Source: Candidatus Corynebacterium intestinavium (GTDB lineage: Bacteria > Actinomycetota > Actinomycetes > Mycobacteriales > Mycobacteriaceae). Taken from it: a stretch of 64,000 nt of DNA. The DNA lies in contig DWUR01000100.1 of assembly GCA_019120635.1 (NCBI GenBank), positions 1,667 through 65,666 of the forward strand. Reading direction: 5' to 3'. Both the position numbers and the translations under genes were made by a program. Positions 3,125-51,413 of this stretch are shown here, one piece after another (the stretch's first letter is position 1; each line of letters begins with the position of its first letter). Under the pieces are notes generated by a model that was not told the origin of the DNA, did no database searches, and was given only the letters and a program-made list of their open reading frames with translations.

Positions 3125-4447
3125 CTAGGCCTCGGTCCAGCCGTCGGACCACTCGGCAGCGACGAGGAAGTCCGCAGCCAGGCGGGCGTCGCGGCGCAGC
3201 TGCGCCACCGCTTCGTCGGTCGCGGGCTGGTCGGCGGGCAGGGAGAGGTTCACGTGCCCGATCTTGCGGCGCGGGCGCCAATCCTTGCCGTACATGTGGA
3301 TCTTCGCCGCCGGAAAGCGGCGCCACACCTGGCCCATCCGCTCGTGCATCGGCATGGCCGGGTCGGCATCGTCGTGCCCCAGCACATTGGCCATGACCGT
3401 GGCCGGCGCGGTGAGATCCGTGCTGCCCAGCGGGCGGTCCAACACCGCGCGCAGGTGCTGCTCGAACTGGCTGGTCACGGAACCGTTCTGGGTCCAGTGG
3501 CCGGTGTTGTGCGGGCGCATGGCCAGCTCGTTGACGCTGATCGCCAGCTCACCGTCCGCGTCGCGGAACTCGAAGAGCTCGACGGCGAGCACGCCGGTGA
3601 CGTCCAGCTCGGTGGCGATGGTGCGGGACAGTTCGCGAGCATGATTGAGAACCTCGCCGTCGTGACCCGGTGCGGGGGCGACGGCCTCCACGCAGATGCC
3701 GCGCTCCTGCACGGACTCGGTGATCGGCCAGGCCTTCGCCTCCCCCGACGGGGTGCGGGCGACCAAGGCGGAGAGCTCGCGAACAAGCTCAACCTTCTCC
3801 TCGGCCATCAGCGGCACGCCCCTGTCCAGCAGCTCGGCGACCAGCTCTTTGAGCTCGGCCTCGGAGCCCGGGAACCACACGCCCTTGCCGTCATAACCGC
3901 CGCGGCGAGCCTTGAGGCAGACCTTGCCGCCGGTGGTAACCCAGAAGGCGGCGGCGTCCTCAGCCTTCTCGATGGCCATGAAGGCCGGGACCGGGGCACC
4001 GAGCTCGGAGAGGCGCTGGCGCTGGATCAGCTTGTCCTGCGCATTGATCAGGGCCTTCGGCTGCGGCTGGACGTTGATGCCGGCGGCGATGAGCTCATCG
4101 AGGAACTCGTTCGGCACGTGCTCGTGGTCGAAGGTCACGGCGTCGGCGTCCTTGGAAACCTCCGCGACGTGCGCTTTATTGGTGTAGTCCCCCAGCACGA
4201 CGTCCGCGGTGACCTGCGCGGCGGAGGCATCGGCGGAGCCGGCGAGCACGCGGGCAGAAAGGCCCAGTTCCACGGCCTCCTGCTGCATCATGCGGGCCAG
4301 CTGGCCATCCCCAATGATGGTGACCAACGGGGCGCCCGGCGCGTGGGCGGCCGCCCGGGCGATGGACCAGTCGGCGGCGCGGGTCATGCCGGAATCGGCG
4401 GTGGAGTCGGAAGCGGATGGTGCAGAAGAATGAGCTGAATCTTTCAC
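3125..4447 (-). CDS. purK: N5-carboxyaminoimidazole ribonucleotide synthase
   Basis: [43 protein letters not shown]; start uncertain (GTG 4447 or ATG 4387). Confidence 0.95.
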
Positions 4448-44711: not shown

Positions 44712-46052
44712 ATGGCTGATGCACCGAAGGACGCAACACCGCAAGGCAAGAAGACCGCGAATGGCGGAAAGCAGCACCCGGTGGACATCACCCTGTTCGG
44801 CGCGACCGGATTCGTCGGCAAGATCCTCGCGGCCTGGCTGGCAGAACACGCGCCGAAGGATGTCACCATCGCGCTGGCCGGCCGCAACCGCGAGAAGCTC
44901 GTCTTCCTCAAGCAGCAGCTGCTGACCGTCCACCAGGGAGTGATGGACTGGCAGATCGTGGAGGCCGATGCCTTCGACGAGGACGCCATGACCGAGCTGG
45001 CGAAGAACACCCGCGTGGTGATCTCCACGGTGGGCCCGTTCGTTCGTTACGGCGAGGACCTCGTGCGCGCCTGCGCGGAGGCCGGCACCCATTACGTGGA
45101 CTCCACCGGCGAGGTGCTGTTCATGCGCAAGATGATCGACAAGTACGACGACGTGGCGAAGGCCAACGGGGCGCGAATCATCCACGCCTGTGGCTTCGAC
45201 TCCGTGCCCTCCGATATCGGCATGCTGCTGATCAGCGAGGCCGCAGCCAAGGATGGCAAGAAGCTGGCCGAGGTGACGAACCTGGTCAGCATGCGCGGGG
45301 CCATGTCCGGCGGCACCGTGGAGTCCGCACGCGAGCAGTTCCAGGCCGCACAGCGCGACCCGGAGCAGGGGCGCGTGCTGGCTGACCCGTACTCCCTGAG
45401 CCCGGCGCGCGAGGCGGAGCCTGAGCTGGGTGAGCAGCCGGATTATGGCGTGCTACAGACCGAGACCGTCGGCGCCCCGGAGGGTTGGGCAGGTCCTTTC
45501 CTCATGGCCTCGGTGAACACCCGCGTGGTGCGCCGCTCCAATGCGCTGAGCGGCTTCAAGTACGGCAAGTCTCTGCGCTACCGCGAGTTCCAGACCACCG
45601 GGCCGGGTCTGAAGGGCCGCGTTCAGGCCTATGCGCTCGGCGGGGTGCAGCAGACGATGCTGACCGCGATGAAGGCGCCGAAGCTGCGGGACTTCATCTC
45701 CCAGTGGGCACCGGAGCCGGGCGAGGGTCCGACGAGCAAGGCGCAGGAGAATGGCTACTTCCGCTGCGTATTCCACGGCTTCGTGAAGCCGAACCCGGCG
45801 CCGAACGTGGAGCCGGATTACATCGCCACCCTGTACTCCCAGGGAGACCCGGGCTACCGCTCAACCTCCCGAATGCTGGGCACCGCGGCACTCACGCTGC
45901 TCAAGGACGAGGCGGAGCTGCCGGGTGCTGAAGGCGGCGTGCTGACCCCAGCGACGGGCCTGGGCATGGTGTACGTGCGTCGCCTCCGCGAGTCCGGGAT
46001 GCGACTGGACGTGGCACGGGGCGGGCTCTACCGCACCTCCACGCCGCAGTAG
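44712..46052 (+). CDS. Saccharopine dehydrogenase-like oxidoreductase / trans-acting enoyl reductase family
   Basis: ITLFGATGFVG, AGRNREKL, STVGPF, HYVDSTGE, CGFDSVPSD, GDPGYRST, GGVLTPA. Confidence 0.85.
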   Translation: MADAPKDATPQGKKTANGGKQHPVDITLFGATGFVGKILAAWLAEHAPKDVTIALAGRNREKLVFLKQQLLTVHQGVMDWQIVEADAFDEDAMTELAKNTRVVISTVGPFVRYGEDLVRACAEAGTHYVDSTGEVLFMRKMIDKYDDVAKANGARIIHACGFDSVPSDIGMLLISEAAAKDGKKLAEVTNLVSMRGAMSGGTVESAREQFQAAQRDPEQGRVLADPYSLSPAREAEPELGEQPDYGVLQTETVGAPEGWAGPFLMASVNTRVVRRSNALSGFKYGKSLRYREFQTTGPGLKGRVQAYALGGVQQTMLTAMKAPKLRDFISQWAPEPGEGPTSKAQENGYFRCVFHGFVKPNPAPNVEPDYIATLYSQGDPGYRSTSRMLGTAALTLLKDEAELPGAEGGVLTPATGLGMVYVRRLRESGMRLDVARGGLYRTSTPQ

Positions 46053-46128
46053 CTGCGGAGTTCGGCGGTCGGGCGGGGCCGTGTGGGGCCCTGCCGTGTG
46101 GTCCCGCCGTGTGGACGGGGCCGGTGGC

Positions 46129-46812
46129 TTAGCTTTCTATCCGGGCGGGGCCATTGGCGACGACGAGGTCCGGGGCAGGGCGCCGGGCGATGTGGGCGCG
46201 CTCTTGGGCGGCCCACATCGCCCACCAGGGGGCGTAGTAGGGGTCTCGATGCAGCGCGCGCTGCTTGCGCAGCTTGGTGGGGGCGTCCAGCACCAGGGTC
46301 CGGTGGGGGATACCGCGACGGCGCAGCACGGCCAGGGACTCAGGACTTAGGGCACCGACGCCTTCGACGATTAGTGGGCGGCCGGGGTCCAGTGGCTGCC
46401 ACTGCGCGGGGGCGTTCTTCTCCCAGTCCCAGCGGCGAAAGCCCGGGCAATTGGGCTGCAGCACCTCGGCGGCGAGCATGCGCGCCGCGGCGAAGAGCCC
46501 GCCCCAGCCGGGGTAGAAATCCTCCAGGTGCACCAGTTGGGGTGCGGTGCCGGGGGTTGGGGACGTGCTCGGTGATGCGCCGGTCTGTTGGCTGGGCGCA
46601 CCGAGTGTGGCCATGAGGCGTTCCGCAAAGTGAGTCTTGCCGGAGCCGCTGCGACCGTCGATGAGGATCGCCCACCGCGGGTCACGGCCCGCGCGGGGTC
46701 GAGGTGCAGCAGCCGACTCGATCTGTGCGGCTCGGCAGCCTCGCTGTCTTGCGACCCAGGTGGAGAGCTCGCGGATGGCATCCGCTGGGGAGAGCTGCGA
46801 AGCGCTAGCCAT
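46129..46812 (-). CDS. P-loop kinase-like protein (nucleoside/uridine kinase-like fold), function unknown
   Basis: Walker A IDGRSGSGKT, HLEDFYPGW, LIVEGVG; start overlaps the ykoC stop by 8 nt. Confidence 0.75.
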   Translation of the reverse strand: MASASQLSPADAIRELSTWVARQRGCRAAQIESAAAPRPRAGRDPRWAILIDGRSGSGKTHFAERLMATLGAPSQQTGASPSTSPTPGTAPQLVHLEDFYPGWGGLFAAARMLAAEVLQPNCPGFRRWDWEKNAPAQWQPLDPGRPLIVEGVGALSPESLAVLRRRGIPHRTLVLDAPTKLRKQRALHRDPYYAPWWAMWAAQERAHIARRPAPDLVVANGPARIES

Positions 46813-47590
46813 TCTGTACTCCCAGCAGCACGAAGTGGCCGGTCCACACCGCGATGCCCAGGGAGAGCAGGCTCAGTGCCAGCGATCCTGCCACCACGGC
46901 CCAGTCCCAGCCGCCGAAGCGGACCTGCCGGGCCCAGGCGCGTTCGATGGGCTGCCCCTCGGCGTTATGCGTGGCACCGAAGCCACGGGCCTCCATCGCG
47001 GTGGCCAGTTTGGAGCCGCGGCGCAGCGCCAGCACGAGCAGGCTGAAAGACTGCTGCACCGCACGCTTCAGCTTGCCCTCATCCCCCAGACCGCGGGCGC
47101 GGCGGGCGCGCTCCACGGCTGTCCAGTCCTCCCGGAACAGGCTGACGAGGCGAACGCCCGCCACCGCGCCGATGACGAAGCGGGTGGGCAGCTTCCATAG
47201 CTGGGCAAGGCCGTCGCCCAGGCGGGTGGGGTCCATGTCCGCGGTGAGCACCACGGCTGGCACGCCCACCGCCAGCACGCGGATCATCACCGCGATGGCC
47301 AGCTGCACCGAGTTCTCGGTGATGTGGATGAAGCCCCATTCCAGGTAGCTCTGCCCGCTGGCCCGACCGTAGAAGAGCATGCTCACGCCCGTCAGCGGGG
47401 CTAGGAGCAGCAGCGGCCAGGCCCGGCGGAACAGCCGGGCGGGCCCGACGCCACACAAGGGTGCGACGACGAGCAGGGTCAGCGCGAAGGACACGCTGGC
47501 GCTCACGATATCGATGCTGATCAGCAGCGGGGTGGTCAGCAACGCGAGCGCGAGCAGCCGGGTGGATGGGTCGATGCGTTCCAGGATCAT
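46805..47590 (-). CDS. ykoC: ECF transporter T component
   Basis: RARRARG and AMEARGFG motifs; in the TPP operon. Confidence 0.88.
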   Translation of the reverse strand: MILERIDPSTRLLALALLTTPLLISIDIVSASVSFALTLLVVAPLCGVGPARLFRRAWPLLLLAPLTGVSMLFYGRASGQSYLEWGFIHITENSVQLAIAVMIRVLAVGVPAVVLTADMDPTRLGDGLAQLWKLPTRFVIGAVAGVRLVSLFREDWTAVERARRARGLGDEGKLKRAVQQSFSLLVLALRRGSKLATAMEARGFGATHNAEGQPIERAWARQVRFGGWDWAVVAGSLALSLLSLGIAVWTGHFVLLGVQNG

Positions 47591-49287
47591 GCCCGCACCT
47601 CCAGGCCGGGGCCCTGGGGCAGGTGCCAGTGGTGCTGGCCCAGGGCGGCGAAGTAGTCCGCGTCGTGGGTGATGGACAGCAGCCCCATGCCACCGTCCGC
47701 CAGTTGTTGCAGCAACCCCACCAGGGCGGTGAACGTGTTGAGGTCCTGGCCGAAGGTGGGCTCGTCCAGGATCAGCAGGCGCGGCTCGGTGGCCAGCACC
47801 GCGGCCACGGAGAGCCGGCGCTTCTCCCCGCCCGAGAGGGTGAAGGGATTGGCCGCCGCGAGGTGGGTCAACCCGAGGGTGCCCAGCAGCTCATCGGCGC
47901 GCCGCTCGGCTGCGGCGGCGTTCATCCCGGCGGCCTTGGGGCCGAGCAGCAGCTCGTCGCGGACGGTGCGGGCGGCGAGCTGGTGTTCCGGGCTTTGGAA
48001 GACGTAGCCGATGCGGCGGACCAGGTACTTCGAGCGCCAGCTTCTGGGGTCCGGGGTTTCTCGGCGCCTGGGCTTGGCGGGCTGGAGCCCACTGGCGTTC
48101 AGCTCCCCGCCCGCCGCGGGAACGAGGCCCGCGAGGGTGAGGGCCAGGGTGGATTTTCCGGTGCCGTTGCCGCCGGTCAGGCAGGTCGACCCTGGCTCCA
48201 GGGCAGCGGTGATGCCGGTGCGGATGGCGTGCTGGCCCCAGCCGATGGTGAGGTCGCGGGTGCGCAGCAGTGGCGCCCCGCTCGCGTGGGAGTTCCCACC
48301 TGCGGGCGAGGACGCAGCGTCGATTAGCGTTTCAGCATCGGTCGGGTGACCAACGGTGCCTCGGTTGCCAGCATGGTTCTGGTGATCAGCATGGCTCCGG
48401 TTGCCATTTGAACCGGGCGCGGCCTTCATCGCGCCCAGCTCGGGCGGCGGGGTGCCCATGCGTCGCAGTGCGGGCGAGATGCCCGGCACCCAGATGCCCG
48501 CCTCGGCGAGCCGGTCGGCGTGGGCGTCCAGGATCTGCCCGGCCGGGCCGTCGGCGAGCACTCCCCCGGCCTGCCGGCCACCACTGACCTGCTCCCCCTC
48601 GCCGCTGGGGTTGGTCTCCCCGAGCACGAGGATGCGGTCGACGTGCCCGGCCCAGGTGGCCGCGCGGTGCTCCACCACGATGAGCGTGGCGCCGGTCTCC
48701 TCGCAGGCGCGGATGACGGCGTCGCGCACCTCGGCCACCCCCTCCGGGTCGAGGTTGGCGGTCGGCTCGTCCAGCACGATCACCCGAGGTCGCATGGCCA
48801 GCACCCCAGCCAGCGCGAGCCGTTGCTTCTGCCCGCCGGAGAGCCGGTGGGTGGATCGGTCGAGGTCCAGCTCCCCCAGCCCGACGGTGCGCAGGGAATC
48901 CGTGGCGCGCTGCCACATCTCCTCCCGCGGGATGCCGAGGTTCTCGCAGCCGAAGACCACGTCGTCGCCGACTCGGGCGGCGATGACCTGCGAATCCGGG
49001 TCCTGCAGCACCATGCCGACCAGCCCGCGCGCCTGGGCGGGATCCTTGCCGTCCACGCGGATGGCACCGCGCTGCTCGCCGTCCTCGGCGTCCCCCAGTA
49101 CCCCGGCGATGCCCGCAAGCAGGGTAGATTTGCCCGCGCCCGAGGCCCCGAGCAACAGGACTCGCTCCCCCGGCTCAAAGCGTGCGGTGATGTTCACGAT
49201 GGCCGGGTTCTTCCGGCCGGCGTGGCGCCAGCCGAAGTCGGTGATCTCCACGACCGCCCCGCCCGGCGGCCGCCCGTGCCTCGTCAT
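47587..49287 (-). CDS. ykoD: ECF transporter dual ATPase (A-A')
   Basis: GASGAGKST/LSGGQKQR/LDEPT and GGNGTGKST/LSGGEKRR/LDEPTFGQD. Confidence 0.9.
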   Translation of the reverse strand: MTRHGRPPGGAVVEITDFGWRHAGRKNPAIVNITARFEPGERVLLLGASGAGKSTLLAGIAGVLGDAEDGEQRGAIRVDGKDPAQARGLVGMVLQDPDSQVIAARVGDDVVFGCENLGIPREEMWQRATDSLRTVGLGELDLDRSTHRLSGGQKQRLALAGVLAMRPRVIVLDEPTANLDPEGVAEVRDAVIRACEETGATLIVVEHRAATWAGHVDRILVLGETNPSGEGEQVSGGRQAGGVLADGPAGQILDAHADRLAEAGIWVPGISPALRRMGTPPPELGAMKAAPGSNGNRSHADHQNHAGNRGTVGHPTDAETLIDAASSPAGGNSHASGAPLLRTRDLTIGWGQHAIRTGITAALEPGSTCLTGGNGTGKSTLALTLAGLVPAAGGELNASGLQPAKPRRRETPDPRSWRSKYLVRRIGYVFQSPEHQLAARTVRDELLLGPKAAGMNAAAAERRADELLGTLGLTHLAAANPFTLSGGEKRRLSVAAVLATEPRLLILDEPTFGQDLNTFTALVGLLQQLADGGMGLLSITHDADYFAALGQHHWHLPQGPGLEVRA

Positions 49288-49307
49288 GGCCCTTTCCCCT
49301 TATCGGC

Positions 49308-49967
49308 CTAGACCAGTTGTTGGCGTTGCCTGCCTGCCGGGAAGCGGTCGAGCGCCCCGGTGGCGGCCAGGCCGCGGACGAGCAGCCAGCCCACCAGCCC
49401 CGCCAGCAGGATGCCGGAGAGAATCATGGTGGACAGGTAGGTGGCGTTGAAGGCCAGGGACTTCGCGTAGTTACCGCTGGTCGCCAGCTCCAGGACGAAC
49501 TCGAAGATGGCGGCCACAGCGCCGGCGGCCATGGCCACTCCCAGCCCAGCGCGGCGGTAGGCGAAGATCGCGAAGACCAGCTCCGCACCCAGCCCCTGGG
49601 CCAGGCCGGAGTACAGGGTCTCGATGCCCCAGTGGTTGCCCAGCAGCGCGGAGACCACGGCGGCGAGCACCTCGACGAAAAGTGCCGCACCTGGCTTGCG
49701 GATGATCAGCCCACCCAGCACGCCACCGAGCAGCCAGATGCCGACCGCGAGCCCGCCGAGGCCCGGGGTGGCGGCATCGAAGACACCATAGGCCGCGCCC
49801 CCGATTCCATTCCATACCCAGAAGATCAGTCCGCAGGCCACACCGAGCACGGCGGCGACGATGATGTCCACGACGCGCCAGGACTTGCTGTGCTGCGTGG
49901 CCTGCTGCTCCCCTGCGAAGCCACTGGTGGCACTGTTCTGTGGTGATTTTTCGGGCGTGATGCTCAC
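49308..49967 (-). CDS. ykoE: ECF transporter S component, thiamine/HMP-related
   Basis: WRVVDII, IIRKPGAA, QGLGAEL; directly downstream of a TPP riboswitch. Confidence 0.9.
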   Translation of the reverse strand: MSITPEKSPQNSATSGFAGEQQATQHSKSWRVVDIIVAAVLGVACGLIFWVWNGIGGAAYGVFDAATPGLGGLAVGIWLLGGVLGGLIIRKPGAALFVEVLAAVVSALLGNHWGIETLYSGLAQGLGAELVFAIFAYRRAGLGVAMAAGAVAAIFEFVLELATSGNYAKSLAFNATYLSTMILSGILLAGLVGWLLVRGLAATGALDRFPAGRQRQQLV

Positions 49968-49970
49968 GGT

Positions 49971-50075
49971 TATCCTCCCTATCGCCGGCATGATCCGGAT
50001 CAGGTTTAACGGTCGGCACCACGATGCTGGCGCCCTCTCAGCCCGGACTTTCTCCCGGACTCCCGCGTTGGTCGG
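49971..50075 (-). promoter_or_regulatory. TPP riboswitch (translational type; RBS GGAGG at its 3' end)
   Basis: Minus strand reads GGGAGTCCGGG...CCGGGCTGAGAGG...GACCGTTAAACCTGATCCGGATCATGCCGGCGATAGGGAG, with the hallmark CTGAGA and ACCTGAT elements. Confidence 0.93.
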
Positions 50076-50105
50076 CTCTAACCCTAGCAGCTGCCCCGGA
50101 CAGCC

Positions 50106-51413
50106 CTATTTCCGGTGCCGGGTGAAGAAGCTCAAGATCTCCGCCCCGGCGTTGACCGCGCGAGTGGGGTTCGCGTTCTGCTGTCCCCCGTCGTTACGCA
50201 CCCCAGCGATCCCGGACTCGCCCGGCCGGGCGGCTTCGCCCTCGCCGGGCCACGTGTGATCCATCCCCTTCACGGCGATGTGCATGACGTCCTTGTCCGC
50301 CGCGCAGTCGCGCCACTGGTAGCGACGGACGACGGGGGTAACGTTGCGAACCGCAGGCGCGCCGAAGCAGGATGCGCGGTGGGCGTACGCGGAGGCGAAG
50401 CTCATCGCCCCGAGGTAGGGGGTGCCGTAGCGAGAGCCGCCTTCGTAGTGGATGCGGCTGTCGGCCTCCCCGTGGATTTCGAGGAAGGACGTCGCCCTGC
50501 TGCCGCGGAACTGTGGGTGTTCTTTGCCGCGCTGTGCCCGTGTTGCGCAGCCCTGCCAGGTTCCCTTGTAATAGGCGCCTGCCACGGAGGCGAAGGCGGC
50601 GAATTCCTGGGGCATCTCGCAGGCGAGCTTCGCGACGAAGCCACCGCCGTTGCTCATGCCCGCGGCATAAATGCGCAGGTCGTCGACCTGGTAGGTAGCG
50701 GCGATGCGGTTGATGAGGTCCCGGACTAGGGCGAGGTCCTGTTTCCCGGTGGCCGTGGCATAAGGCGCGCCCGCCCAGGCCTTGTCGATTCCGTCGGGGT
50801 AGGCGACGATGGCGCCGTCCCGGGCGAGGTCGCCGAAGCGGGCCATGGATGCGCCGGACTGCCCGTAGCCGTGGAAGGCGAGGATCAGCGGTTTGGGACG
50901 GGTGGCCTGGGACTGGCGGGGCAGGGCGTCGGCGGGCACGTACAGCACTGCCTGGCGGTTCAGTCCGCCCGATTTCAGCTGGACTTGGCCGTTGTGCCCG
51001 GGGCGTGGGGCACCCCGCAGCGGGGCGGAGTGCTGGGTATTGCGCAGCACGGGCGCGGGGCTGGTGCTGGTGGCAGGATCCGCGGCAGCTTCCTGACCGG
51101 GCTCTCCCCCGCGGCCGTCCCGGGCGCTGGGCTCGCCGCCCGCCCCTGGGGTGCGGTCGTTGCTAGTGCCCGTGGCCCGGCTTGAGCGCTCCGGGATGGC
51201 CACGGCGGATTCGTGCTCAGTGCGCTCGCTGACCAGGCTGTGCCGACTTTTTCGGGTGAGGTAGTCGACGCTCCAGCCGGTATTTTTCTGCAGCCACACC
51301 CCGGCCCCGGCCGCGAGCAGAATGGCCACGGCTGCCAGCGCGAGGGCGATGATTCGCCGCAGCATATAGCGCCGCTGACTGGTGGGTCGCCCGGGAGGGC
51401 CAGGGGTGGTCAT
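50106..51413 (-). CDS. Membrane-anchored alpha/beta hydrolase (LpqC/PHB-depolymerase-like esterase)
   Basis: LILAFHGYG, nucleophile motif GMSNGG, EIHGEAD, MDHTWPG; N-terminal TM and a long low-complexity linker. Confidence 0.85.
   Translation of the reverse strand: MTTPGPPGRPTSQRRYMLRRIIALALAAVAILLAAGAGVWLQKNTGWSVDYLTRKSRHSLVSERTEHESAVAIPERSSRATGTSNDRTPGAGGEPSARDGRGGEPGQEAAADPATSTSPAPVLRNTQHSAPLRGAPRPGHNGQVQLKSGGLNRQAVLYVPADALPRQSQATRPKPLILAFHGYGQSGASMARFGDLARDGAIVAYPDGIDKAWAGAPYATATGKQDLALVRDLINRIAATYQVDDLRIYAAGMSNGGGFVAKLACEMPQEFAAFASVAGAYYKGTWQGCATRAQRGKEHPQFRGSRATSFLEIHGEADSRIHYEGGSRYGTPYLGAMSFASAYAHRASCFGAPAVRNVTPVVRRYQWRDCAADKDVMHIAVKGMDHTWPGEGEAARPGESGIAGVRNDGGQQNANPTRAVNAGAEILSFFTRHRK

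What the first reader, a model, noticed from the sequence alone, without database searches (positions are those of the whole stretch)
46129..50075. TPP riboswitch operon ends in an unexplained P-loop kinase: candidate thiamine/HMP salvage kinase
Seen: riboswitch, ykoE, ykoD, ykoC and the kinase are all on the minus strand, and the kinase start overlaps the ykoC stop by 8 nt. It has Walker A DGRSGSGKT, HLEDFYPGW and a Trp-rich C-terminal WWAMWAAQE. Known: YkoEDC imports thiamine or HMP-type precursors, which must be phosphorylated after uptake; characterised ThiD, ThiM and ThiK are ribokinase- or choline-kinase-like, not P-loop. Inference: a non-orthologous kinase that traps the imported precursor.
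Basis: partly seen in the sequence, partly recalled or inferred. Interest (0 to 1): 0.56.

Follow-up and report, generated by a model that had tools for sequence, protein, structure and literature searches.

The report
Predicted P-loop thiamine kinase (ThiK3)
The last gene of this vitamin-B1-controlled importer operon very probably encodes the so far untested enzyme that phosphorylates imported thiamine in corynebacteria; the idea is sound but was already listed as "ThiK3" in a 2019 supplementary table.

Summary
On the minus strand lie a TPP riboswitch (48 bits, under Rfam's 54.3 cut-off but E 3e-8), then ykoE, ykoD, ykoC and a 227-aa P-loop protein whose ATG overlaps the ykoC stop by 8 nt (ATGGCTAG).

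The protein matches NCBIfam PRK06547 ("hypothetical protein"). It folds like type I pantothenate kinase, uridine kinase and phosphoribulokinase (Z 13-15).

In 95 of 121 Corynebacterium genomes sampled it follows ykoEDC; about 17 genomes lack both. Nine genomes have no ThiE hit, and all nine keep the operon. Five of these were examined further: no ThiD, TPK or E. coli-type ThiK, but ThiL is present. There TMP can only come from phosphorylation of imported thiamine.

A distant family member follows a PnuC-family transporter behind a weak TPP riboswitch in Nanopelagicaceae, which show the same gap (ThiE 0/14, TPK 0/14, ThiL 14/14).

Best reading: thiamine kinase (thiamine to TMP), confidence about 0.7.

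It is not new. Rodionov et al. [quoted passage not shown] This scan also flagged the family on other genomes. I found no biochemical test.

The parts
49958..50076 (-). TPP riboswitch aptamer (THI element). Its 3' end overlaps the probable ykoE ribosome-binding site.
   Evidence: RF00059, 48.0 bits (gathering 54.3), E 3.2e-8, model positions 1-105. It was missed at gathering threshold. Riboswitches at the same position in relatives score 52-72 bits.
49308..49991 (-). ykoE, the substrate-binding S component of the ECF importer. The probable true start is GTG 49967, after GGGAGGA at 49979-49973.
   Evidence: PF09819, 137.9 bits. ORF. The start is inferred from the sequence.
47587..49287 (-). ykoD, a duplicated ABC ATPase (two cassettes in one 566-aa protein).
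   Evidence: PF00005, two stretches, 175 bits. ECF ATPase models score 289-297 bits.
46805..47590 (-). ykoC, the ECF T (transmembrane) component.
   Evidence: PF02361 CbiQ, 60.6 bits. It overlaps the ykoD stop by 4 nt.
46129..46812 (-). P-loop small-molecule kinase of the PRK06547 family: the predicted thiamine kinase ('ThiK3'), 227 aa, translationally coupled to ykoC.
   Evidence: NF005115, 167.8 bits (cut-off 173). AF2 model pLDDT 89.3. Fold matches to PanK, UCK and PRK at Z 13-15. 8-nt overlap ATGGCTAG. Linkage in 95 of 121 genus genomes.

Best explanation
The operon is a thiamine uptake-and-trap unit. When TPP is low, the riboswitch frees the ykoE ribosome-binding site. The ECF transporter YkoE-YkoD-YkoC then imports thiamine. 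The translationally coupled P-loop kinase transfers the gamma-phosphate of ATP to the hydroxyethyl group of thiamine, giving thiamine monophosphate (EC 2.7.1.89). ThiL converts this to TPP. Shown here: gene order and overlaps, the riboswitch, the fold class, conservation of the linkage, and the pathway gap in relatives. Inferred: the substrate, the product, co-transcription, and the roles of D98 (catalytic base), E150, the arginines R182/R185/R189 (lid) and the invariant aromatic residues (thiamine pocket).
For: (1) Coupling: the 8-nt ATGGCTAG overlap with a GGGAG site upstream. No promoter-like site was found in 45800-50400.

(2) Linkage: in 121 Corynebacterium genomes the family occurs in 99 and ykoE in 102. 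In 95 the kinase lies 2.6-4.1 kb downstream of ykoE on the same strand, and about 17 genomes lack both. The same four-gene order occurs in Agromyces, Protaetiibacter, Rhodoglobus, Homoserinimonas and Salinibacterium, with riboswitches where tested.

(3) When a CLC channel gene splits the operon (G415, G402), ykoD-ykoC-kinase has its own second TPP riboswitch.

(4) Pathway gap: ThiE was not found in 9 of 121 genomes, and all nine carry the operon. In five of them PF08543 gives only 62-66 bit partial hits, against 258 bits for ThiD in G000, so ThiD is missing. ThiL scores 202-224 bits, E. coli-type ThiK gives no match, and TPK passes its cut-off nowhere in the genus. Eight of the nine have a single TPP riboswitch in the genome. 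For seven of these eight it was placed directly upstream of ykoE.

(5) Retention of ThiL argues for TMP as the product, not TPP.

(6) Fold: type I pantothenate kinase Z 14.9 (201 residues), uridine-cytidine kinase 2 Z 13.8 (rmsd 2.6), phosphoribulokinase Z 13.6. These enzymes phosphorylate a primary hydroxyl.

(7) Invariant residues across 46 homologues include Walker A G53/G56/G58/K59, Y100-P101-G102-W103, W128-D129-W130, E150, R182, W200 and E204.

(8) Independent case: 14 complete Nanopelagicaceae genomes have ThiE 0/14, TPK 0/14, ThiL 14/14 and a family member 14/14. In the four loci fetched that gene overlaps a PnuC-family transporter; in three of the four a 35-37 bit TPP riboswitch match lies upstream.

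(9) The same assignment is published as ThiK3 (PMC6593275 supplement).
Against: The window's own genome has ThiC, ThiD, ThiE and ThiG, so here the kinase is not required. ThiL was not found in this 91%-complete assembly, although the nearest complete relative G325 has it.

In a class-wide sample most family members are not next to ykoEDC: 8 loci in 7 of 139 genomes are. The others sit in unrelated contexts (DinB, MoaA, MOSC, a PabB fusion) with no TPP riboswitch within 1.5 kb. The family may therefore not have a single substrate.

Five Corynebacterium genomes have ykoEDC without the kinase. The riboswitch here is below Rfam's gathering score. An ECF S component might also import TMP directly. 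The protein scores just under the NF005115 cut-off and does not hit Pfam PRK.
Confidence: 0.7

Rival explanations
1. It is a salvage kinase for a different thiamine-related compound. This was the first reader's alternative: HMP or HMP-P, the thiazole alcohol HET, or a thiamine analogue. A variant is that it makes TPP directly.
For: YkoE-type S components are annotated for HMP as well as thiamine (PMC6593275 supplement). The window's genome lacks a convincing ThiM, with 29.5 bits only. The fold class fits any substrate with a primary alcohol.
Against: In genomes without ThiE and ThiD, phosphorylated HMP or HET has no use, yet the operon is kept. ThiD is present in this genome, so an HMP kinase would be redundant. 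ThiL is kept in ThiE-less genomes, which argues against direct TPP synthesis. P-loop kinases transfer one phosphate (established knowledge).
Confidence: 0.12
2. It is a nucleoside or nicotinamide-riboside type kinase that sits next to the transporter for historical reasons and has no role in thiamine metabolism.
For: Databases name relatives uridine kinase, (d)CMP kinase or gluconate kinase. Uridine-cytidine kinases are among the closest folds. PnuC-family transporters classically partner with nicotinamide riboside kinases (established knowledge). Many family members lie in unrelated contexts.
Against: The linkage persists across 95 species, with joint absence in about 17. It recurs in a second family. 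A separate riboswitch is kept when the operon is split. The Nanopelagicaceae transporter sits behind a TPP-like element, not an NAD-related one. The database names are automatic and untested.
Confidence: 0.08
3. It is not a metabolic kinase but an accessory NTPase of the ECF transporter, acting in assembly, gating or regulation.
For: Translational coupling to the T component. Some sources name relatives 'cobalt ABC transporter' or EcfA2.
Against: YkoD already supplies two ATPase cassettes. The same family also follows a Pnu-type facilitator, which uses no ATPase. The fold and motifs are those of small-molecule kinases. G409 keeps the gene without ykoEDC.
Confidence: 0.04

Closest known systems
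[quoted passage not shown] 2019, Front Microbiol 10:1316, PMC6593275, Figure S1 legend and Table S2)
   Same: Same position and regulation. In the Corynebacterium rows of Table S2 the ThiK3 gene number directly follows YkoC2, for example C. efficiens 1137/1138/1139 then 1140, and C. striatum 10/11/12 then 13. The transporter is listed there as thiamine-specific (YkoE2, YkoD2d, YkoC2).
   Different: That entry is a name in a supplementary table, with no sequence family, fold or experiment given. Identity with the PRK06547 family is inferred here from gene order. The ThiE-less genomes, the split operons and the Nanopelagicaceae PnuT pairing are additional.
ThiK (YcfN) of E. coli and Salmonella, thiamine kinase EC 2.7.1.89 (NCBIfam NF007620)
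   Same: The proposed reaction (thiamine + ATP gives TMP + ADP) and the role upstream of ThiL.
   Different: Unrelated protein. ThiK belongs to the aminoglycoside/choline kinase-like fold (established knowledge). The window protein matches no such model, and NF007620 is not found in the relatives tested.
Type I pantothenate kinase (CoaA), uridine-cytidine kinase and phosphoribulokinase group of P-loop kinases
   Same: Overall fold including the N-terminal helix: CoaA Z 14.9 over 201 residues, UCK2 Z 13.8 with rmsd 2.6. Walker A followed by an Asp-x-aromatic motif after strand 2, and an arginine-rich lid.
   Different: Only 12-20% identity. No Pfam PF00485 hit for the window protein. The family has its own invariant YPGW, WDW and W..QE motifs. 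The genomic context points to thiamine, not pantothenate, nucleosides or ribulose 5-phosphate.
PnuT with thiamine pyrophosphokinase: uptake-and-trap operons behind TPP riboswitches (PnuT mechanism: PMC5749112)
   Same: The logic is the same: a riboswitch-controlled importer coupled to the enzyme that phosphorylates the imported vitamin.
   Different: Here the importer is an ATP-driven ECF transporter. The enzyme is a P-loop monophosphate kinase that needs ThiL afterwards, not a pyrophosphokinase.

Membership tests
ThiK3 (in silico role of Rodionov et al. 2019) | The gene directly follows ykoC in a ykoEDC operon. | tested here: met
   8-nt overlap with the ykoC stop. The same order occurs in 95 of 121 genus genomes.
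ThiK3 (in silico role of Rodionov et al. 2019) | THI-regulated: a TPP riboswitch precedes the operon. | tested here: met
   RF00059, 48 bits, E 3.2e-8, at 49958-50076. This is below Rfam's gathering score. The position is conserved in relatives.
ThiK3 (in silico role of Rodionov et al. 2019) | Thiamine kinase activity. | not testable with these tools
   Only genomic inference is available.
NCBIfam NF005115 (PRK06547, 'hypothetical protein') | Score at or above the curated cut-off of 173 bits. | tested here: not met
   167.8 bits, E 1.4e-49, profile positions 16-163 of 172. This is a near miss, caused in part by a 19-residue Pro/Ser/Thr-rich insert. 76 of 121 genus genomes pass the cut-off.
Pfam PF00485 PRK (phosphoribulokinase / uridine kinase family) | HMM match above gathering score. 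| tested here: not met
   No PF00485 hit at E <= 0.01 for the window protein. The Nanopelagicaceae relative does hit at 30.2 bits. Fold similarity is Z 13-15.
P-loop small-molecule kinase | Walker A GxxGxGK[ST], an acidic residue after strand 2, a Walker-B-like acidic residue, and lid arginines. | tested here: met
   G53-T60, D98, E150 and R182/R185/R189 are invariant or at least 90% conserved in 46 homologues. Their catalytic roles are inferred.
E. coli-type thiamine kinase ThiK (NF007620) | Match to the curated model. | tested here: not met
   The NCBIfam scan of the protein returns only NF005115.
Thiamine pyrophosphokinase (PF04263) | TPK catalytic domain. | tested here: not met
   No Pfam hit in the protein. 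None in G000. None over the cut-off in 121 genus genomes.
TPP riboswitch RF00059 | Score at or above the gathering score of 54.3 bits. | tested here: not met
   48.0 bits and absent from the gathering-level scan. It is treated as real because of the E-value, the full-length match, the conserved cores and the conserved position.
YkoEDC group I ECF transporter | A dedicated S component (PF09819), a T component (CbiQ) and a duplicated ATPase in one operon. | tested here: met
   137.9, 60.6 and 175.4 bits respectively.

The most novel reading that the evidence does not exclude
The whole PRK06547-like family is the general, so far unrecognised thiamine kinase of Actinomycetes. This would include the many members not linked to any transporter (Streptomyces-size genomes, Micromonosporaceae, Streptosporangiaceae) and the PnuT-coupled ones of the abundant freshwater Nanopelagicaceae. 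It would be a fourth, P-loop solution to thiamine phosphorylation, with a Trp/Tyr-rich pocket for the thiazolium cation. It would fill the gap 'ThiL but no ThiK or TPK' in thiamine-auxotrophic actinobacteria.
Probability: 0.4. Interest if true: 0.6.

Novelty: new member of a known kind. Interest (0 to 1): 0.45.

Why it matters
Many bacteria that cannot make vitamin B1 have ThiL but no known enzyme that makes its substrate from imported thiamine. If this small protein is that enzyme, thiamine salvage can be reconstructed correctly for corynebacteria (skin, oral and industrial species), for Microbacteriaceae, and probably for very abundant freshwater actinobacteria. It would also add a P-loop fold to the known thiamine kinases. 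In thiamine auxotrophs it would be a conditionally essential step. The claim can be tested with one purified protein and one complementation experiment.

Tried and rejected
- The whole-window Rfam scan at gathering threshold found no RNA family. The riboswitch appeared only in a permissive scan.
- A sequence-only PDB search gave little beyond Walker A matches such as midasin and AAA proteins.
- The idea that ykoC linkage holds for the whole family was rejected. In the class sample only 7 of 139 genomes with the family show it. Twenty unlinked loci have no TPP riboswitch within 1.5 kb.
- I asked whether genomes with ykoEDC but no kinase carry a replacement kinase in the same place. G317 has a GCS2/ATP-grasp gene there, G346 a convergent polysaccharide deacetylase, and G356 a convergent FMN reductase. 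G407 and G350 have small ORFs with no Pfam family and no similarity to the kinase profile. No replacement was identified.
- 'Stops inside' the kinase in G382, G386 and G313 turned out to lie outside the conserved core. Only G408 is frameshifted.
- The weak TPK_catalytic hits in 18 Corynebacterium genomes cover profile positions 8-44 inside ORFs of about 400 aa and stay below the cut-off. They were not taken as TPK.
- Literature searches for PRK06547 and ThiK3 in main texts returned nothing. A 2015-2026 search for 'thiamine kinase' showed no characterisation of this family.
Full report
**What is in the window**

The minus strand of 46129-50076 carries four tightly packed ORFs:
- ykoE, 49308-49991: PF09819, 137.9 bits.
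- ykoD, 47587-49287: two ABC_tran cassettes.
- ykoC, 46805-47590: CbiQ, 60.6 bits.
- A 227-aa P-loop protein, 46129-46812.

ykoD and ykoC overlap by 4 nt. The last junction reads ATGGCTAG, so the start of the fourth gene overlaps the ykoC stop by 8 nt, and GGGAG lies 6 nt upstream of the ATG.

The riboswitch is real but weak by Rfam's standard. It is absent from a gathering-level scan of the window. A permissive scan finds it at 49958-50076 with 48.0 bits against a gathering score of 54.3, E 3.2e-8, over the full model length and with the conserved cores. The ATG listed as the ykoE start (49991) lies inside the aptamer. An in-frame GTG at 49967 preceded by GGGAGGA is the likelier start. That places the ribosome-binding site in the 3' part of the aptamer and suggests control of translation (inference). 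No sigma-70-like promoter was found anywhere in 45800-50400. That scan is of limited value in actinobacteria.

The assembly is a Corynebacterium of 1.98 Mb in 160 contigs, 91% complete.

**What the fourth protein is**

Pfam gives only sub-threshold AAA_33 and AAA_18 hits. NCBIfam gives one strong match, NF005115 (PRK06547, 'hypothetical protein'), at 167.8 bits, just under the cut-off of 173. Public records name relatives hypothetical protein, uridine kinase, (d)CMP kinase, gluconate kinase or 'cobalt ABC transporter'. None of these names rests on a test.

An alignment of 46 homologues shows invariant residues:
- Walker A: G53, G56, G58, K59.
- A Y100-P101-G102-W103 block that follows D98.
- W128-D129-W130.
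- E150-G151-x-G153.
- R182, W200 and E204.

The AlphaFold model is confident (pLDDT 89.3, pTM 0.87). Its best structural matches are type I pantothenate kinase (Z 14.9, 201 residues, including the N-terminal helix), uridine-cytidine kinase 2 (Z 13.8, rmsd 2.6 over 156 residues), a 'putative fructose transport system kinase' (3c8u, Z 13.7) and phosphoribulokinase (Z 13.6). Adenylate-kinase-type proteins follow at about Z 10. The fold class is therefore that of P-loop enzymes that phosphorylate a primary hydroxyl of a small molecule.

The 46-residue N-terminal extension is specific to a sub-clade. It stays open and free of indels in two related species, with third-position-biased substitutions. 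It is modelled as a helix with high confidence. It is probably translated, although public gene calls for the same 90% cluster vary between 161, 179 and 227 aa.

**Is the linkage conserved?**

Within the genus, yes. Among 121 Corynebacterium genomes the family is found in 99 and ykoE in 102. By comparing coordinates, the kinase lies 2.6-4.1 kb downstream of ykoE on the same contig and strand in 95 genomes.

The four exceptions among the kinase hits are:
- One genome with the kinase but no ykoE (G409).
- Three weak hits that form a separate paralogue branch (G364, G368, G401).

About 17 genomes lack both genes. Five have ykoEDC without the kinase.

TPP riboswitches lie directly upstream of ykoE in at least 36 of the listed genomes.

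Two genomes are natural experiments. A chloride-channel gene on the opposite strand separates ykoE from ykoD, and a second TPP riboswitch sits directly in front of ykoD-ykoC-kinase.

Outside the genus the same four-gene order, with a riboswitch where tested, occurs in Microbacteriaceae: Agromyces (two copies in one genome), Protaetiibacter, Rhodoglobus, Homoserinimonas and Salinibacterium. It also occurs in two further unnamed lineages.

The linkage is not a property of the whole family. In a sample of 301 genomes of the class, 139 have a family member but only 7 of them have it next to ykoE. One of the 139 is the unpublished genome G035, and no specific claim rests on it. Other members sit beside DinB, MoaA, or a MOSC / alanine-racemase-like pair, or are fused to a PabB-type chorismate-binding enzyme. 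They have no TPP riboswitch within 1.5 kb. In a tree the Corynebacterium proteins form one clade (support 98/97), and 20 unlinked proteins form another (92/98).

**What it most likely does**

The decisive argument is a gap in the pathway.

- ThiE (TMP synthase) was not found in 9 of the 121 genomes, and all nine carry ykoEDC plus the kinase. One of the nine, G365, is only 87% complete and its close relatives have ThiE, so it should be discounted.
- Five of the nine, three of them single-contig genomes, were examined further. They have no ThiD: PF08543 gives only 62-66 bit partial hits of the pyridoxal-kinase kind, against 258 bits for ThiD in G000. They have no E. coli-type ThiK. They do have a clear ThiL at 202-224 bits. 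Three more of the nine also have ThiL.
- No thiamine pyrophosphokinase passes its cut-off in any of the 121 genomes.
- Eight of the nine have exactly one TPP riboswitch match in the genome. For seven of these eight it was located directly upstream of ykoE.

These organisms cannot use HMP or thiazole. They must import intact thiamine, and they must make TMP for ThiL by an enzyme not yet identified. The only uncharacterised gene in their sole TPP-controlled operon is this kinase. Retention of ThiL, together with the chemistry of P-loop kinases, points to TMP rather than TPP as the product.

**An independent second case**

Fourteen complete 1.3-1.5 Mb genomes of Candidatus Nanopelagicaceae were examined.
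- ThiE: 0 of 14.
- TPK: 0 of 14.
- ykoE: no match.
- ThiL: 14 of 14.
- A distant family member (85-105 bits): 14 of 14.

In the four loci fetched, that 178-aa gene overlaps the end of a PnuC-family transporter (PF04973, 132 bits). In three of the four a divergent TPP riboswitch match of 35-37 bits lies just upstream (E 7e-6 over 300 nt, GGCUGAGA core present).

Pnu transporters are facilitators that rely on phosphorylation to trap their cargo (PMC5749112). A kinase fused into that operon is what the thiamine-kinase reading predicts. The alternative for this locus is nicotinamide riboside uptake with an NR kinase. It is disfavoured by the TPP-like element but cannot be excluded at this score.

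**Caveats for this window**

G000 itself has ThiC, ThiD, ThiE and ThiG, so here the operon serves salvage, not an obligatory route. ThiL was not detected in G000. The nearest complete relative, G325, has it, so this is most likely an assembly gap.

Nothing here shows transcription, enzyme activity or substrate binding.

**Comparison with what is known**

The reaction proposed is that of E. coli ThiK, but the protein is unrelated to it. By fold it belongs with the CoaA, Udk and PRK group. It fails the Pfam PRK model and narrowly fails the NCBIfam model, so I file it as a close relative of PRK06547 rather than a certified member.

The functional prediction is not new. The supplement of Rodionov et al. 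[quoted passage not shown] In its Table S2 the ThiK3 entry of nine Corynebacterium genomes is the gene number directly after YkoC2. C. glucuronolyticum, C. propinquum and C. pseudodiphtheriticum have none, which mirrors the few kinase-less operons seen here. The name does not appear in any main text in the library, and I found no biochemical study.

Earlier notes of this scan reached the same reading on other genomes: e1-2995596, e1-4266440, e1-2746740, e1-4163937 and, for a Pnu-coupled kinase, e1-3332222. They are not independent evidence.

**Verdict**

The HMP/HET variant is unlikely. The finding is a further member of an already predicted, still untested enzyme family. Its value lies in the clean genomic argument and in a cheap decisive experiment, not in novelty.

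Noticed in passing
L039:696-5335 (G415) and L040:1128-5757 (G402): The ykoE / ykoD-ykoC-kinase operon is split by a CLC chloride-channel gene on the opposite strand (L039:1421-2632). Each half has its own TPP riboswitch (L039:696-827 and 2633-2745; L040:5627-5757 and 3706-3818).
   Followed up: partly
L086-L089 (Candidatus Nanopelagicaceae; e.g. L089:4317-5507): A divergent TPP riboswitch match (35-37 bits) is followed by a PnuC-family transporter (200 aa) and an overlapping 178-aa kinase of the same family, annotated 'Udk uridine kinase'. All 14 genomes sampled lack ThiE and TPK and have ThiL.
   Followed up: partly
L030:1-2088 (-) (G003; also G208): The kinase domain is fused in frame to the N-terminus of a PabB/anthranilate-synthase-type chorismate-binding enzyme (open frame of at least 696 aa). 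A UniRef name 'para-aminobenzoate synthase' for a Corynebacterium hansenii homologue (P0084) may reflect this. No explanation.
   Followed up: no
protein P0053 (312 aa): A homologue carries a NUDIX domain (PF00293), which suggests a fusion of the kinase with a pyrophosphohydrolase.
   Followed up: no
L049:3273-4058 (+) (G407): In one Corynebacterium genome that has ykoEDC but no kinase, a 262-aa ORF with no Pfam family overlaps the ykoC stop by 4 nt, in the kinase's place. It shows no similarity to the kinase profile.
   Followed up: partly
L057 / L004 and L034 (Agromyces sp. MMS24-JH15): One genome carries two complete ykoE-ykoD-ykoC-kinase operons. The two kinases fall on different branches of the tree. 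One groups with the copy from G101, a genome of the window's own family (98/93), which hints at horizontal transfer of the operon.
   Followed up: no
L045 (G101:C6:491000-498000): This linked ykoEDC-kinase operon, in another genus of the same family, has no detectable TPP riboswitch at E <= 0.001 in the 1.5 kb upstream of ykoE.
   Followed up: no
window 46129-46812 (-); cluster: Public gene calls for proteins within 90% identity of this one are 161, 179 or 227 aa long. The 161-aa call would start after the Walker A loop and is probably wrong. The 227-aa form is supported by frame conservation and the model.
   Followed up: partly
window 46315-46374 (-), protein residues 72-91: A Pro/Ser/Thr-rich insert of about 19 residues (low pLDDT) lies between the Walker A helix and strand 2. 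It is present only in this sub-clade and absent from most homologues.
   Followed up: no
L042, L043, L044 (G368, G401, G364): Three Corynebacterium genomes carry a divergent paralogue of the family (51-71 bits to the profile) that is not linked to ykoEDC. It forms a long separate branch in the tree.
   Followed up: no
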